This document shows positions 1,453-37,488 of a stretch of 64,000 nucleotides of DNA, in pieces (within the stretch, counting starts at the first letter, position 1; every line of letters begins with the position of its first letter). The notes beneath the pieces are model-generated. The model saw only the letters and a program-made list of their open reading frames with translations, searched no databases and was not told the DNA's origin. Both the position numbers and the translations under genes were made by a program. Source of the DNA: Escherichia coli (GTDB lineage: Bacteria; Pseudomonadota; Gammaproteobacteria; Enterobacterales; Enterobacteriaceae); the NCBI RefSeq assembly GCF_044324785.1, contig NZ_CP172127.1. One strand, 5' to 3'.

Positions 1453-2776
1453 ACCTGCGCATTTATTATTGGTCGATGACGATCCGGGATTGCTGAAACT
1501 GCTTGGCCTGCGTCTGACCAGCGAAGGCTACAGCGTGGTTACGGCGGAAAGTGGTGCTGAAGGATTACGGGTACTGAATCGCGAAAAAGTAGATTTAGTC
1601 ATCAGCGACCTGCGGATGGATGAAATGGACGGTATGCAGCTGTTTGCTGAAATCCAGAAAGTGCAGCCGGGAATGCCAGTAATTATTCTTACTGCGCATG
1701 GTTCTATTCCCGATGCCGTTGCTGCAACACAGCAGGGCGTTTTTAGTTTCCTCACCAAGCCTGTCGATAAAGACGCGCTATATCAGGCAATTGACGATGC
1801 GCTGGAACAATCCGCGCCAGCCACCGATGAACGCTGGCGCGAGGCGATTGTCACCCGCAGCCCGCTGATGCTGCGTTTGCTGGAACAGGCGCGGCTGGTG
1901 GCACAATCAGACGTTAGCGTTTTGATTAACGGCCAGAGCGGCACCGGGAAAGAGATTTTCGCCCAGGCTATCCACAACGCCAGCCCGCGCAACAGCAAAC
2001 CATTTATTGCTATTAACTGTGGTGCATTGCCCGAGCAATTGCTGGAGTCGGAGCTGTTTGGTCATGCGCGTGGAGCGTTTACTGGCGCTGTCAGCAATCG
2101 CGAAGGTTTATTCCAGGCGGCGGAAGGCGGTACGCTATTTCTCGATGAGATTGGCGATATGCCCGCACCGTTGCAGGTTAAACTGCTGCGCGTGTTGCAG
2201 GAGCGTAAAGTGCGCCCGCTGGGCAGTAACCGCGATATTGATATCGACGTGCGGATTATTTCTGCCACTCACCGCGACCTGCCAAAAGCGATGGCGCGCG
2301 GGGAATTCCGTGAAGATCTTTATTACCGCCTCAACGTTGTCAGCCTGAAAATTCCGGCACTGGCGGAGCGCACAGAAGACATTCCGCTACTGGCAAATCA
2401 CCTGTTGCGCCAGGCGGCAGAGCGACATAAACCGTTTGTCCGCGCGTTCTCTACCGATGCGATGAAACGCCTGATGACCGCGAGCTGGCCGGGTAATGTG
2501 CGCCAGTTGGTCAACGTGATTGAACAGTGCGTGGCGCTGACCTCATCTCCGGTGATTAGTGATGCGCTGGTGGAGCAGGCGCTGGAGGGTGAAAATACGG
2601 CGCTGCCAACCTTTGTTGAGGCACGTAATCAGTTTGAACTCAACTATTTGCGTAAGCTGCTGCAAATTACCAAAGGCAACGTCACCCACGCGGCGAGAAT
2701 GGCGGGGCGCAACCGGACAGAATTTTATAAACTGCTTTCCCGACACGAGCTGGATGCAAACGATTTCAAGGAATGA
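1442..2776 (+). CDS. glrR: Sigma-54-dependent response regulator GlrR (YfhA)
   Basis: Receiver domain (LLVDDDP), AAA+ sigma-54 activator motifs (GESGTGKE, GAFTGA), C-terminal HTH; start chosen at MSHKPAHLL giving 444 aa; overlaps qseG by 11 bp. Confidence 0.9.
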
Positions 2777-2800
2777 ATTGGCGTTATGTGTTACGTTTAG

Positions 2801-3175
<375 letters not shown>

Positions 3176-3187
3176 ACCGCGTCAAGG

Positions 3188-3213
3188 GTTGCCGGATGTT
3201 TCCATCCGGCAAC
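3188..3213. terminator. 11-bp stem-loop between the convergent glnB and hmp 3' ends; possible bidirectional terminator, no clear U-tract
   Basis: Inverted repeat gttgccggatg / catccggcaac with 4-nt loop seen directly in the sequence. Confidence 0.4.
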
Positions 3214-3219
3214 ATCAAA

Positions 3220-33325: not shown

Positions 33326-33526
33326 ATGGGACTTAAGTGGACCGATAGCCGCGAAATTGGCGAAGCACTGTACGATGCGTATCCCGATCTTGATCCGAAA
33401 ACGGTTCGATTCACCGATATGCATCAGTGGATTTGCGATCTGGAAGATTTCGACGACGACCCGCAGGCATCCAACGAGAAAATCCTCGAAGCGATTTTGT
33501 TAGTCTGGCTGGACGAAGCCGAATAA
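33326..33526 (+). CDS. iscX: Fe-S assembly accessory protein IscX (YfhJ)
   Basis: 66-aa acidic protein [24 protein letters not shown]. Confidence 0.9.
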
Positions 33527-33703
33527 TTTCCGCGTCATGCTTCACGCCGCAGATGCGTTGGCTGCGCTCGTTCACCCCAGTCACATAGTTATCTATGCTC
33601 CTGGGGCTTCACTCACTTGCCGCCTTACTGCAACGCGAATCATTTAGCGGAAAAATCCTGGGGCTGCCAACTGGCGGCCCTTTTACAAATAAGGATAACT
33701 AAA

Positions 33704-34995: not shown

Positions 34996-35075
34996 TTTGG
35001 CCTACAAAATTGCGAAAATCCAATAGATTGAGATTCTCTTGTAGGCCTGATAAGCGTGGCGCATCAGGCACTTGT
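34996..35075. repeat. REP/BIME element between pepB and sseB
   Basis: ttggcctacaaaattgcg ... ttgtaggcctgataagcgtggcgcatcaggca. Confidence 0.55.
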
Positions 35076-35105: not shown

Positions 35106-35882
35106 ATGTCCGAAACAAAAAACGAACTTGAAGATCTGCTGGAAAAAGCAGCAACCGAACCGGCGCACCGCCCGGCCTTTTTCCGTACGCTACTGGGATC
35201 CACCGTCTGGGTGCCTGGTACGGCGGCGCAGGGCGAGGCTGTGGTTGAAGATAGCGCACTTGATTTACAGCACTGGGAAAAAGAAGACGGCACCAGTGTC
35301 ATTCCTTTTTTCACCTCGTTAGAAGCACTTCAACAGGTGGTTGAAGACGAACAGGCATTTGTCGTAATGCCCGTTCGCACATTGTTTGAGATGACCCTTG
35401 GCGAAACGCTCTTCCTTAATGCCAAACTGCCAACCGGTAAAGAATTTATGCCGCGTGAAATCAGTTTGCTGATTGGTGAAGAAGGAAATCTGCTGAGCAG
35501 CCAGGAAGTACTGGAAGGCGGTGAATCGCTGATATTATCGGAAGTTGCAGAGCCACCAGCACAAATGATTGATTCACTCACCACCTTATTTAAAACCATT
35601 AAGCCAGTGAAGCGTGCTTTTCTTTGTTCAATTAAAGAGAACGAAGAGGCACAGCCTAATTTACTTATTGGCATTGAAGCCGATGGTGATATCGAAGAAA
35701 TTATTCAGGCGGCGGGAAGTGTAGCGACCGATACATTACCTGGCGATGAACCCATCGATATTTGTCAGGTGAAAAAAGGGGAAAAAGGAATTAGCCACTT
35801 TATTACCGAACATATTGTGCCATTCTATGAACGTCGCTGGGGTGGTTTTTTGCGTGACTTTAAACAGAACCGGATAATCTAA
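35106..35882 (+). CDS. sseB: SseB (enhancer of serine sensitivity) family protein
   Basis: 258 aa from MSETKNELEDLL; position between pepB and sseA. Confidence 0.85.
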   Translation: MSETKNELEDLLEKAATEPAHRPAFFRTLLGSTVWVPGTAAQGEAVVEDSALDLQHWEKEDGTSVIPFFTSLEALQQVVEDEQAFVVMPVRTLFEMTLGETLFLNAKLPTGKEFMPREISLLIGEEGNLLSSQEVLEGGESLILSEVAEPPAQMIDSLTTLFKTIKPVKRAFLCSIKENEEAQPNLLIGIEADGDIEEIIQAAGSVATDTLPGDEPIDICQVKKGEKGISHFITEHIVPFYERRWGGFLRDFKQNRII

Positions 35883-35885
35883 AAT

Positions 35886-35912
35886 ATGCCGCCCCAAAGG
35901 GCGGCATTCGGG
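35886..35912. terminator. Bidirectional intrinsic terminator: ends sseB on the + strand and the putative ryfA transcript on the - strand
   Basis: Hairpin gccgccc caaa gggcggc; on the - strand it is followed by atatttt. Confidence 0.55.
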
Positions 35913-36199
35913 CTTACCTGCTGTTCTGAAGGTTGTTAACCACCAATAAATTGTTGCCGGAGAGACTCCGGTTATTATTTACCTCGGTTAACAGCGCACC
36001 AGAAACAATAAGTACGATACAAAAGCACCGTATCTTCATTGTGCGGTCCATGCGAAGACCGCATCACGACAGCACCACTGGCGATATTGCCGCGATAGCA
36101 AGCGCTGAGACGCGCTTGCCCTAACGGTCGCGGAACATCCTTTCCTTAAGCCAGCGCCCGCTTGCGAGACGGCGGAAAGGTCCGCAGTGGATAACACAC
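35893..36199 (-). ncRNA. ryfA: Putative ryfA transcript (about 300 nt), a small mRNA/sRNA carrying a short hydrophobic ORF
   Basis: From memory, ryfA lies next to the sseB 3' end in K-12. Candidate - strand promoter (-35 TTGTCA, 16-bp spacer, -10 TATTGT) near 36207-36234 and the terminator at 35886-35912 bound a roughly 300-nt unit. Confidence 0.45.
35914..36051 (-). CDS. Small hydrophobic ORF (45 codons; 41 from the internal Met at 36039): MDRTMKIRCFCIVLIVSGALLTEVNNNRSLSGNNLLVVNNLQNSR; candidate type I toxin-like membrane peptide (TimP-like)
   Basis: Hand-translated from the - strand; hydrophobic stretch CFCIVLIVSGALL; lies inside the putative ryfA transcript; not in the ORF track because it is under 60 aa. 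Confidence 0.35.
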   Translation of the reverse strand: MDRTMKIRCFCIVLIVSGALLTEVNNNRSLSGNNLLVVNNLQNSR

Positions 36200-36262
36200 T
36201 AACAGAACAATAATAACTCTCTTTTACTTGACAAAAAGAGAGTTACTGGCGAGTATTGTGTC

Positions 36263-36359
36263 CGCTGAGACGCGCTTGCATTACTACGGTTATACAATCT
36301 GCTGGAAAGGCCGCGAACCAAACCAGCAACAAATAACCGCCTGATTTTGGCGGTTTTTT
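36263..36359 (+). ncRNA. Candidate sRNA (about 97 nt) divergent from ryfA, with a 17-nt perfect antisense match to the ryfA 5' region; antitoxin-like (TimR-like)
   Basis: Promoter TTGACA (36228-36233), 17-bp spacer, GAGTAT; internal hairpin tgctgg...ccagca; intrinsic terminator aaccgcc tgatttt ggcggtt plus T6 at 36335-36359; 36263-36279 is identical to 36103-36119 on the same strand. Confidence 0.4.
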
Positions 36360-36539
36360 GTTGTTTAAAGAAAGTGAAATTACACGTTTAAGTAATATCT
36401 TTTACCAGTTAGTATATTTTAATATTAAGCGGGATTTGTTTATATTTGTCTGAATTCGGACTGATAAGCCAAATGAATTCAAAATCTATCCTTTTTTATC
36501 TACTTGACATCGTTGATGCATAAAGCGAGTATTGAGTAG

Positions 36540-36626
36540 ACGAGATACACTTGCAGTAATACAACCTGCTGGAAAGGCCGCGAATCAGACCAGCAATAAA
36601 AAAACCGCCAAATTCGGCGGTTTTTT
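36540..36626 (+). ncRNA. Sibling copy of the candidate sRNA (about 87 nt) with degenerate antisense region; its terminator is bidirectional and also serves sseA
   Basis: Same promoter architecture (TTGACA 36504-36509, 17-bp spacer, GAGTAT), same internal hairpin (cctgctggaaaggccgcgaa...cagca), terminator aaaaaaaccgccaaattcggcggtttttt. Confidence 0.35.
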
Positions 36627-36642
36627 ATTGCCTGTAAAAAGC

Positions 36643-37488
36643 TTATTTCAATGGCTCAACCGGTAAATCTGCCCGTGCGCCCCATTCACTCCATGCGCCG
36701 TCGTACAGTTTCACGTTTGGCACATCCAGCGTCGCGAGTGCCAACAAAACCACGGCTGCCGTTACACCAGAACCGCAACTGACGATAATAGGTTTGTCAT
36801 AACTTACGCCGCGACCAAAAAATATCGCATCCAGTTCATCGGTCGTTTTTAGTTCGCCTTCGCGCACCAGTTCCGTCCACGGAACATTCAGTGCTCCGGG
36901 AATATGTCCGCGACGTAAACCTGGGCGAGGTTCATCAACTTCTGCGTTAAAACGTGCAGCCGGGCGGGCATCGATAATTTGCGCCGTATTTTCATGGCTT
37001 GCCAATAACACATCGGTTACTTTCACCACGGCTTCAGGATTAAACGCGGCGTTAAACTCTCCTTCCGGCAGCTCTACTGCGCCTTCTTCTAATAGCAGAT
37101 CATCACGCTGCCAGCCTGCAAGTCCACCACCCAGAATCGACACTTTCTCTACACCAAAGGTGCGCAGCATCCACCATGCTCGTGGGGCTGAGAAAAGATT
37201 ACCTTCGTCATAGACAATCAGGTGCTTATCCTGGTTAACGCCTAATTCACGCATCGCCACGGCGAACGTTTCCGGGCGCGGCAGCATGTGCGGAAGCGGG
37301 GAAGTGTGATCAGAAAGCGCTTCGATATCAAAAAACACTGCGCCGGGAATATGTCCATTCAGATACTCCTGAGCAACGTTACGATCTTCCTGTCCAGGCG
37401 ACGCCATGCGGGCATCGATAATCTGAATTTCCGGGTCATCAATATGTTCGGCGAGCCAGTCGGCTCCTACAAACCATGTCGTGGACAT
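36643..37488 (-). CDS. sseA: 3-mercaptopyruvate sulfurtransferase (tandem rhodanese domains)
   Basis: 281 aa from MSTTWFVGADWL; active-site Cys loop (CGSGVTA); ORF-track upstream extension rejected. Confidence 0.9.
   Translation of the reverse strand: MSTTWFVGADWLAEHIDDPEIQIIDARMASPGQEDRNVAQEYLNGHIPGAVFFDIEALSDHTSPLPHMLPRPETFAVAMRELGVNQDKHLIVYDEGNLFSAPRAWWMLRTFGVEKVSILGGGLAGWQRDDLLLEEGAVELPEGEFNAAFNPEAVVKVTDVLLASHENTAQIIDARPAARFNAEVDEPRPGLRRGHIPGALNVPWTELVREGELKTTDELDAIFFGRGVSYDKPIIVSCGSGVTAAVVLLALATLDVPNVKLYDGAWSEWGARADLPVEPLK

What the first reader, a model, noticed from the sequence alone, without database searches (positions are those of the whole stretch)
36495..36630. Second sibling sRNA copy with conserved promoter and terminator but eroded antisense region
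A second unit (promoter TTGACA-N17-GAGTAT at 36504-36532, internal hairpin cctgctggaaaggccgcgaa...cagca, terminator at 36603-36626) parallels the first copy. Its seed region reads gagatacacttgc, with three mismatches to the ryfA target, where the first copy has gagacgcgcttgc. This could be a decaying duplicate, a sibling with a different target, or a remnant of a lost second ryfA copy; from memory, tandem ryfA1/ryfA2 copies exist in Shigella dysenteriae. Its terminator is a perfect bidirectional one and also ends sseA.
Basis: partly seen in the sequence, partly recalled or inferred. Interest (0 to 1): 0.45.

Follow-up and report, generated by a model that had tools for sequence, protein, structure and literature searches.

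The report
Orphan TimR antitoxin sRNA copy
The second small-RNA unit next to sseA is an intact copy of the TimR/RyfB antitoxin RNA whose matching toxin gene (a different ryfA/timP allele) is missing from this E. coli genome but present in about 40 other strains. It is a leftover antidote, not a decaying duplicate.

Summary
Window 36504-36626 (+) holds a second TimR/RyfB-type sRNA gene: TTGACA-N17-GAGTAT promoter, 5' seed, conserved stem-loop, and a bidirectional terminator shared with sseA. A covariance model built only from TimR genes of other strains and species hits it at 75.5 bits (E 5e-17).

The seed is not eroded. Its first 17 nt (GACGAGATACACTTGCA) match perfectly a distinct ryfA/timP 5'UTR allele, which I call ryfA-3. 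That allele occurs in a metagenome contig and in 40 of 5,426 complete E. coli genomes, always with this same sRNA downstream.

About 390-400 genomes carry copy B, so roughly 90% of them, this window included, lack ryfA-3. They carry ryfA-1 plus its own TimR-1 (copy A) instead. Predicted pairing of copy B with the resident ryfA is -16 kcal/mol, against -31 to -37 for cognate pairs.

One strain (E7-1N7) carries the full array: ryfA-1/TimR-1, spacer, sseB', ryfA-3/TimR-2', spacer, TimR-3. Recombination between the two spacers gives exactly the window's layout.

Verdict: an orphan type I antitoxin sRNA, probably still transcribed. It is a new allele of a known family and parallels the known orphan OrzP. 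Expression and any present function were not tested.

The parts
36504..36532 (+). Copy B promoter: -35 TTGACA (36504-36509), 17-nt spacer, -10 GAGTAT (36527-36532)
   Evidence: Read directly from the sequence. The same hexamers and 17-nt spacing occur in every E. coli TimR allele examined, although the spacer sequences are unrelated. The annotated K-12 timR (b4811) start lies 7 nt after the same -10.
36539..36626 (+). Predicted TimR-3 (copy B) RNA, about 88 nt. The start is inferred by analogy with the K-12 timR annotation.
   Evidence: Covariance model hit at 36539-36626, 75.5 bits, E 4.6e-17. Fold -24.7 kcal/mol, z -3.1.
36539..36555 (+). Seed GACGAGATACACTTGCA (type 3) at the 5' end
   Evidence: Perfect 17-nt identity in DNA text, hence RNA complementarity, to the ryfA-3 5'UTR in L019-L022. 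There are 5 differences from the resident ryfA site. Duplex energy is -31.0 kcal/mol with ryfA-3 and -16.2 with the window ryfA.
36567..36595 (+). Conserved stem-loop SL2 (CUGCUGG...CCAGCA)
   Evidence: Conserved in all 13 TimR sequences aligned. The window has a private C>T in the loop at 36585.
36599..36626 (.). Bidirectional intrinsic terminator, shared by copy B (+) and sseA (-)
   Evidence: Folds on both strands with U-runs on both sides. The sseA stop codon is at 36643-36645.
36361..36503 (.). AT-rich spacer between the two sRNA copies. This is the repeat that mediates loss of the ryfA-3 segment.
   Evidence: Rfam IS128 (RF00125) hit of 166 bits at 36317-36495 on the - strand. The spacer is present twice in E7-1N7. 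The window's spacer carries the unit-2 variants at all diagnostic positions.
36228..36360 (+). Copy A: TimR-1 with its promoter. This is the cognate antitoxin of the resident ryfA.
   Evidence: Covariance model hit of 96 bits. The seed CGCTGAGACGCGCTTGC (36263-36279) is identical in text to ryfA 36103-36119. Duplex energy is -37.2 kcal/mol.
35881..36185 (-). ryfA/timP toxin mRNA of type 1. The timP ORF is 35914-36039 and the TimR target hairpin includes 36103-36119.
   Evidence: Rfam RF00126, 318.6 bits. The timP CDS is annotated in the near-identical strain N3.
36643..37488 (-). sseA (3-mercaptopyruvate sulfurtransferase), convergent with copy B
   Evidence: ORF list and RefSeq annotation of strain N3.

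Best explanation
Copy B is an intact allele of the TimR/RyfB antitoxin sRNA of the timP-timR (ryfA-ryfB) type I toxin-antitoxin system. I call it TimR-3.

TimR sRNAs use their single-stranded 5' end to pair with stem-loop 2 of the timP (ryfA) 5'UTR, and this blocks toxin translation. E. coli carries at least four mutually non-matching seed/target pairs at the sseB-sseA locus.

TimR-3 is the partner of the ryfA-3 allele. In this genome ryfA-3, together with an intervening TimR-2' copy, is absent. The most likely cause is homologous recombination between the repeated TimR 3' domain plus AT-rich spacer of a tandem array like that of strain E7-1N7.

What remains is ryfA-1 with its own TimR-1 (copy A), plus TimR-3 as an orphan antidote.

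Copy B is probably still transcribed, because its promoter, seed and terminator are the same as in strains where it is the only matching antitoxin. It cannot effectively pair with the resident ryfA.

Its terminator is kept in any case because it also ends sseA.

Shown here: homology, anatomy, the cognate allele, the population distribution, and an array that yields this layout by one deletion.

Inferred: transcription, lack of a current role, and the direction of the rearrangement.
For: - The covariance model from non-window TimR sequences hits copy B at 75.5 bits, E 4.6e-17.
- K-12's annotated timR (b4811) is the positionally equivalent sseA-proximal copy, and it matches K-12's own ryfA allele.
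- Seed and target co-vary in every unit examined. This holds for types 1, 2 and 4, for Citrobacter, and for Yersinia and Serratia plasmids.
- The energy matrix is dominated by its diagonal. Cognate pairs give -31 to -37 kcal/mol and non-cognate pairs -10 to -25. Copy B against the resident ryfA gives -16.2, while the target hairpin context alone folds at -19.2.
- A metagenome scan for a ryfA carrying the type-3 site found contig OGQV01000039.1. It has GACGAGATACACTTGCA in the ryfA 5'UTR and an identical TimR-3 downstream.
- Exactly 40 of 5,426 complete E. coli genomes carry ryfA-3 at 99% identity or more. The next best allele scores 94.6%.
- Copy B is present in 391-400 genomes, always in the same context.
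- E7-1N7 (L022) carries ryfA-1/TimR-1, spacer, sseB', ryfA-3/TimR-2', spacer, TimR-3. The window equals unit 1 joined to the unit-2 spacer and TimR-3.
- Experimental precedent: RyfB1 lowers RyfA1 but not RyfA2, and these differ by 5 nt in the same region (PMC5333039).
Against: - No expression data for copy B were available.
- The -10 hexamer matches only 3 of 6 consensus positions, and copy B lacks SL1.
- SNP density in copy B (3.4%) equals that of the neighbouring spacer (3.5%) across six genomes. Neither selection nor decay can be read from it.
- The direction of the rearrangement is not proven. E7-1N7 could instead be a recombinant of the two simpler layouts.
- Only 64 kb of this genome was visible. 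Absence of ryfA-3 elsewhere is inferred from the closest complete genome, strain N3. N3 has a single ryfA place and is not among the ryfA-3 carriers.
- SCU-172 carries ryfA-3 with an IS1 inside the TimR-3 promoter. This suggests TimR-3 may not be strictly required even where its target is present.
Confidence: 0.8

Rival explanations
1. Copy B is a decaying duplicate of copy A whose antisense region has eroded by random mutation, so it is a pseudogene in progress.
For: There are five differences from the resident target and an 8-nt deletion that removes SL1. No matching target exists in the window.
Against: The same seed is perfectly complementary over 17 nt to a natural ryfA allele in 40 genomes. 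The seed and promoter hexamers are invariant in the six carriers aligned. The promoter spacer is unrelated to that of copy A, so copy B is not a recent copy of A. The SL1-less form is the one present in strains where it is the only cognate antitoxin.
Confidence: 0.03
2. The orphan TimR-3 is kept by selection as standing immunity. It would neutralise ryfA-3-type timP cassettes arriving by recombination or on mobile elements, an anti-addiction or compatibility role.
For: About 350 genomes keep an undamaged copy without the toxin. ryfA-3 circulates in the same lineages and at the same locus. timPR cassettes also sit on conjugative plasmids in Yersinia and Serratia. Extra TimR copies without an extra ryfA are common, with 7,715 TimR places against 5,587 ryfA places in 5,425 genomes.
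Against: No plasmid or phage carrying a type-3 target was found. Carrier genomes are about 99% identical across the locus, so retention may simply reflect recent origin. SNP density gives no sign of constraint beyond the background.
Confidence: 0.1
3. Copy B has acquired a different trans target unrelated to ryfA, and it acts as an ordinary regulatory sRNA through its 28-nt unstructured 5' tail.
For: The 5' tail is predicted to be single-stranded. A 2026 study of avian pathogenic E. coli reports phenotypes suggesting that TimR acts aberrantly when RyfA is absent (PMC13188913).
Against: The seed is identical to that of strains where it pairs with ryfA-3, so there is no sign of retargeting. The only other near-match in the 64 kb has 3 mismatches, at chance level.
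Confidence: 0.07

Closest known systems
TimR (STnc2070) of Salmonella and E. coli K-12 timR (b4811), the antitoxin sRNA of the timP/ryfA type I toxin-antitoxin system
   Same: Same locus (sseB-sseA) and same orientation. It has the same TTGACA-17-GAGTAT promoter, the same 5'-end seed position, the same SL2 and the same terminator. K-12 b4811 occupies the same sseA-proximal slot and shares the same terminator sequence.
   Different: The seed is a different specificity (type 3), SL1 is missing, and in this genome no matching timP 5'UTR is present.
RyfB1/RyfB2 sibling sRNAs with RyfA1/RyfA2 in Shigella dysenteriae (Fris et al. 2017, PMC5333039)
   Same: Two RyfB-type sRNAs lie in one intergenic region, each with a seed covering the variable region of a ryfA allele. 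Specificity is set by about 5 nt.
   Different: S. dysenteriae keeps both ryfA genes, whereas here the second ryfA is gone. The type-3 seed is neither the type-1 (window, E2348/69) nor the type-2 (K-12) allele, which differ at 5 positions and which I take to be RyfA1/RyfA2. No Shigella sequence was examined here.
Orphan OrzP (OrzPmg) of the zor-orz type I system in E. coli MG1655 (PMC11264685)
   Same: This is an antitoxin-only remnant of a duplicated type I locus. It is widespread (about 30% of E. coli), highly conserved, and still expressed in MG1655.
   Different: It belongs to a different toxin-antitoxin family. For copy B the genome still holds a paralogous toxin with its own antitoxin, and expression is untested.
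Rfam IS128 (RF00125)
   Same: It overlaps the region between the two copies. A weak partial hit also covers the copy B terminator (21.8 bits).
   Different: IS128 is modelled on the opposite strand. It corresponds to the spacer plus the antisense of the copy A terminator. Copy B itself is not an IS128 member, since its score lies far below the gathering threshold of 80.

Membership tests
TimR/RyfB antitoxin sRNA (timPR type I toxin-antitoxin system) | Sequence and structure homology to known TimR genes | tested here: met
   Covariance model R1 was built from 13 TimR sequences, including the annotated K-12 timR. Copy B scores 75.5 bits, E 4.6e-17. SL2 and the terminator align, and SL1 is deleted.
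TimR/RyfB antitoxin sRNA (timPR type I toxin-antitoxin system) | Own sigma-70 promoter and intrinsic terminator giving an RNA of about 90-100 nt | tested here: met
   TTGACA-17-GAGTAT lies at 36504-36532. A terminator hairpin with a U-run lies at 36599-36626. This rests on sequence only.
TimR/RyfB antitoxin sRNA (timPR type I toxin-antitoxin system) | Encoded beside timP/ryfA on the opposite strand | tested here: inconclusive
   It lies in the same sseB-sseA intergenic region and on the strand opposite to ryfA. However, it starts about 350 nt from the ryfA start, with copy A and the spacer in between. K-12's annotated timR is equally distal.
TimR/RyfB antitoxin sRNA (timPR type I toxin-antitoxin system) | 5' seed complementary to stem-loop 2 of the timP 5'UTR in the same genome | tested here: not met
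   There are 5 mismatches in the 16-17-nt core. The duplex gives -16.2 kcal/mol against -37.2 for copy A. The feature is met perfectly (17 of 17 nt, -31.0 kcal/mol) for the ryfA-3 allele of other strains.
TimR/RyfB antitoxin sRNA (timPR type I toxin-antitoxin system) | Transcribed, and represses TimP synthesis | not testable with these tools
   No expression or reporter data were available. TimR expression is shown by Northern blot only for Salmonella, CFT073 and CH138 (PMC13188913).
Orphan type I antitoxin (as OrzPmg) | Antitoxin gene retained while the cognate toxin gene is absent from the genome | tested here: met
   ryfA-3 occurs in only 40 genomes against 391-400 with copy B. The closest complete genome, N3, has one ryfA, of type 1. 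For the window genome itself only 64 kb could be inspected.
Rfam IS128 (RF00125) | Score at or above the gathering threshold (80 bits) | tested here: not met
   Copy B region scores 21.8 bits, E 0.76, on the - strand, and only the terminator aligns.

The most novel reading that the evidence does not exclude
The sseB-sseA locus of E. coli may be a recombining cassette system with at least four orthogonal toxin-mRNA/antitoxin-sRNA specificities. In this reading, orphan antitoxins such as copy B are kept by selection as immunity that decides which incoming timP alleles a lineage can tolerate. This would be an RNA-based compatibility polymorphism rather than neutral debris.
Probability: 0.12. Interest if true: 0.6.

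Novelty: new member of a known kind. Interest (0 to 1): 0.35.

Why it matters
It shows that what looks like a broken antisense RNA is a working key whose lock has been removed.

It also gives a concrete, datable picture of how type I toxin-antitoxin cassettes turn over: the toxin is lost and the antidote is kept.

RefSeq annotates nothing at this position in any of the carrier genomes checked. In K-12-like and window-like genomes, about 40% of E. coli, there are more TimR copies than ryfA genes. Knock-out and phenotype studies of 'timR' or 'ryfA' in E. coli therefore need to know which copy is the cognate one.

The natural set of orthogonal seed/target pairs (types 1-4) is a ready-made test bed for the specificity rules of the TimR-timP interaction.

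Tried and rejected
- Chimeric query. I placed the type-3 seed into the window's ryfA-1 background and searched E. coli genomes. The best hit was 96.2%, and I first read this as 'no ryfA-3 exists'. That inference was wrong. The real ryfA-3 has different flanks and would score no better than type-1 alleles. It was superseded, which used the real sequence.
- Collection scan with YGAGATACACTTGC. A plain 14-mer would have given thousands of chance hits in 298 Gb.
- Scan of GTDB species-representative genomes with a conserved ryfA hairpin pattern. The pattern was too strict and returned only 6 loci, with no Salmonella, E. albertii or E. fergusonii. It was useful for showing seed/target co-variation, but it contained no type 3.
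- Plasmid and phage searches. timPR-like cassettes exist on Yersinia and Serratia plasmids, but with other seeds. There was no mobile type-3 target.
- Search for another target of the copy B seed inside the window. It found one 3-mismatch site, at chance level.
- SNP density comparison across six carriers. The divergence is too small to detect either constraint or decay.
- The consensus promoter and terminator scan missed copy B, so it was not used as evidence either way.
- The K-12 'RyfB' found in the literature is, from my memory, the shoB mRNA and unrelated to Shigella RyfB1. I could not confirm this in the papers held, so I did not use it.

Full report
**What is in the window**

The region between sseB (ends 35882, + strand) and sseA (36643-37488, - strand) contains four elements.
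- The ryfA/timP toxin mRNA lies on the - strand (Rfam RF00126, 318.6 bits, 35881-36185). Its timP ORF is 35914-36039.
- sRNA copy A lies at 36228-36360 (+).
- An AT-rich spacer follows. It matches Rfam IS128 on the - strand (166 bits, 36317-36495).
- The unit under review, copy B, lies at 36504-36626 (+).

**Check of the observation**

All stated elements are at the stated coordinates.
- The promoter is TTGACA 36504-36509, a 17-nt spacer, and GAGTAT 36527-36532.
- The seed text starts at 36539.
- The hairpin CUGCUGG...CCAGCA follows.
- The terminator is at 36599-36626.

The two copies align at 82% identity. The terminator folds on both strands and lies 17 nt past the sseA stop codon.

I tested homology with a covariance model. 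It was built from 13 TimR sequences: K-12 (both copies), E2348/69, O157-type, strain 3CM, E. whittamii, Escherichia sp. E1V33, two Citrobacter, two plasmids, and the L019 proximal copy. No window sequence and no type-3 sequence was included.

Over the whole 64 kb the model gives two strong hits. Copy A scores 96 bits (E 3.6e-22) and copy B scores 75.5 bits (E 4.6e-17). The remaining hits are the palindromic terminators read on the other strand.

The consensus structure has a single-stranded 5' seed, a 5-bp SL1 with compensatory GC/AU changes, SL2, and a terminator. Copy B lacks SL1 through an 8-nt deletion.

**What family it belongs to**

In K-12 MG1655, RefSeq annotates timR (b4811, 'putative small regulatory RNA TimR') at the sseA-proximal position. 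That is the slot occupied by copy B, about 400 bp from ryfA.

The literature establishes three points.
- ryfA encodes the small toxin TimP.
- The divergent sRNA TimR pairs with stem-loop 2 of the timP 5'UTR and blocks translation (PMC7667032, PMC11228461).
- S. dysenteriae has RyfA1/RyfA2 with RyfB1/RyfB2. RyfB1 acts on RyfA1 but not on RyfA2, and these differ by 5 nt in the pairing region (PMC5333039).

**The seed is a specificity type, not an eroded sequence**

Reading the locus in other strains shows matched seed/target pairs.
- Type 1 is CGCTGAGACGCGCTTGC. It occurs in the window ryfA and copy A, in E2348/69 and in E. whittamii.
- Type 2 is GCTGTGAA(A/G)CACCTGC. It occurs in the K-12 ryfA and b4811.
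- Type 4 is CACTGTGGGGTGCCTG. It occurs in O157:H7.
- Further pairs occur in Citrobacter and on Yersinia and Serratia conjugative plasmids.

Copy B carries GACGAGATACACTTGCA, which I call type 3.

Duplex energies give a matrix dominated by its diagonal. Cognate pairs score -31.0 to -37.4 kcal/mol and non-cognate pairs -10.7 to -25.4. Copy B against the resident ryfA-1 scores -16.2, less than the -19.2 of the target hairpin context itself. Copy B is therefore not a backup antitoxin for the resident toxin.

**The missing partner exists**

I scanned metagenome contigs for a ryfA-context pattern carrying the type-3 site. The scan returned one contig, OGQV01000039.1 (152 kb, locus L019).

Its ryfA 5'UTR reads ...GCAAGCGACGAGATACACTTGCATTT..., a perfect 17-nt match to copy B. 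Downstream lie a proximal TimR with a type-2-like seed (TimR-2'), the same spacer, and a TimR-3. Over its promoter and 5' half that TimR-3 is identical to copy B, including the same spacer/promoter junction.

I then searched with the real ryfA-3 sequence. Exactly 40 of 5,426 complete E. coli genomes carry ryfA-3 at 99% identity or more. No genome falls between 95% and 99%, and the next allele (type 2) scores 94.6%.

The copy-B-specific segment (36440-36575) is present in 400 genomes, 391 of them at full length and all at 95% identity or more. It always has the same context and is never annotated.

So roughly nine in ten carriers, this window included, have TimR-3 without ryfA-3. The closest complete genome is strain N3, 99.6% identical over the locus. 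It has a single ryfA, of type 1, and is not among the ryfA-3 carriers.

An earlier negative result from a chimeric query was invalid, because the real allele has different flanks. I record it as an error that I caught.

**How the orphan arose**

Strain E7-1N7 (L022) carries this array: sseB, ryfA-1, TimR-1, spacer, sseB' fragment, ryfA-3, TimR-2', spacer, TimR-3, sseA.

TimR-1 and TimR-2' share an identical 3' domain and terminator, followed by the roughly 150-bp spacer. Together these form a direct repeat of about 250 bp.

The window equals unit 1 up to the TimR-1 body, joined to the unit-2 spacer and TimR-3. At every diagnostic position the window's spacer carries the unit-2 variant.

An ST69 genome has its crossover further into the spacer. 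This suggests more than one event, or later gene conversion.

The reciprocal simple layout (ryfA-3, TimR-2', spacer, TimR-3) is the common form among the 40 ryfA-3 genomes. I cannot tell whether the tandem array is ancestral or itself a recombinant. In either case copy B is the cognate partner of ryfA-3.

**Is it still active?**

This could not be tested here.

Arguments for activity:
- The promoter hexamers and the 17-nt spacing are the only parts of the promoter conserved among otherwise unrelated TimR promoter spacers. That pattern is typical of a functional promoter.
- Copy B's promoter and seed are identical to those in strains where TimR-3 is the only RNA able to pair with an intact timP-bearing ryfA-3.
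- Six carriers show no change in hexamers or seed.

Arguments for caution:
- GAGTAT is a weak -10.
- SL1 is missing.
- SNP density in copy B (3.4%) equals that of the spacer (3.5%), so no constraint is detectable at this shallow divergence.
- In SCU-172 an IS1 sits between the -35 and -10 of TimR-3 although ryfA-3 is present.

**Comparison with what is known**

Copy B works like, and is homologous to, TimR/RyfB. It fails one defining feature in this genome, complementarity to the resident timP, and meets that feature for another allele.

The closest precedent for its present state is the orphan OrzP of the zor-orz system. About 30% of E. coli genomes are antitoxin-only for that system, and the orphan is expressed in MG1655 (PMC11264685).

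Extra TimR copies are also common. The TimR 3' domain gives 7,715 places in 5,425 genomes, against 5,587 places for the ryfA 5' region. About 2,000 genomes have a two-TimR layout. K-12 is one of them, and there the unannotated ryfA-proximal type-1 copy is the non-cognate one. I found no paper describing this for timPR.

**Verdict**

The feature is real. It is a new, unannotated allele of a known antitoxin sRNA family, orphaned by cassette recombination.

The 'eroded seed' reading is rejected and the 'remnant of a lost second ryfA' reading is upheld. Interest is moderate. It is a clear case of toxin-first loss in a type I system, and a warning for annotation and genetics at this locus, but it is not a new kind of element.

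Noticed in passing
window 36317-36495 (- strand): The Rfam IS128 family (166 bits) corresponds to the AT-rich spacer plus the antisense of the copy A terminator. This spacer appears only in multi-TimR arrays and is the direct repeat flanking the ryfA-3/TimR-2' segment in E7-1N7. Whether IS128 is a real RNA, and on which strand, is unclear.
   Followed up: partly
L001 (K-12 MG1655) about 1646-1742, - strand: K-12 has an unannotated ryfA-proximal TimR copy with the type-1 seed, which does not match K-12's own type-2 ryfA. The annotated timR (b4811) is the distal copy. It is preceded by a stub of sseB 3' end fused to the first roughly 13 nt of a deleted second ryfA.
   Followed up: partly
L009 (Citrobacter amalonaticus AUH_CA_2023_1), around position 330 of the extract printed: The ryfA target site is fused directly to the TimR body. 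This looks like a deletion between the 16-nt direct repeats formed by target and seed, and it removes both promoters.
   Followed up: no
L020 (E. coli SCU-172) about 1351-1365; L021 (ST70) about 1450-2010: In SCU-172 an IS1 is inserted between the -35 and -10 of TimR-3, although ryfA-3 with an intact annotated timP is that strain's only ryfA. In ST70 an IS200/IS605 element sits at the TimR-3 terminator.
   Followed up: no
L017 (Yersinia pseudotuberculosis pGDT4) 1428-1990; L018 (Serratia pJSRIV001_1) 1100-1560: timP/TimR-like cassettes with their own matched seeds lie on conjugative plasmids, next to transfer genes. pGDT4 also has a degenerate second copy in which a timP fragment is fused to a TimR-like 3' domain.
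   Followed up: partly
L005 (E. coli 3CM) 2000-3215: This strain has a full tandem of two ryfA genes with matched TimRs (a type-2 unit, spacer, sseB' fragment, then a type-4 unit). About 160 extra ryfA places exist among 5,425 genomes.
   Followed up: partly
window 36291: Copy A in this window has a private A>T change that breaks one base pair of its SL1 hairpin (AUUAC/GUUAU instead of GUAAU). The five other carriers aligned have A.
   Followed up: no
window 33460-33652 (-) and 35006-35048 (+): There are sub-threshold Rfam hits to Vibrio AS5 and Shigella CssrA (42.9 and 25.5 bits) upstream of pepB. There is also one to ES036/CssrF (24.3 bits) between pepB and sseB. All are below gathering scores.
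   Followed up: no
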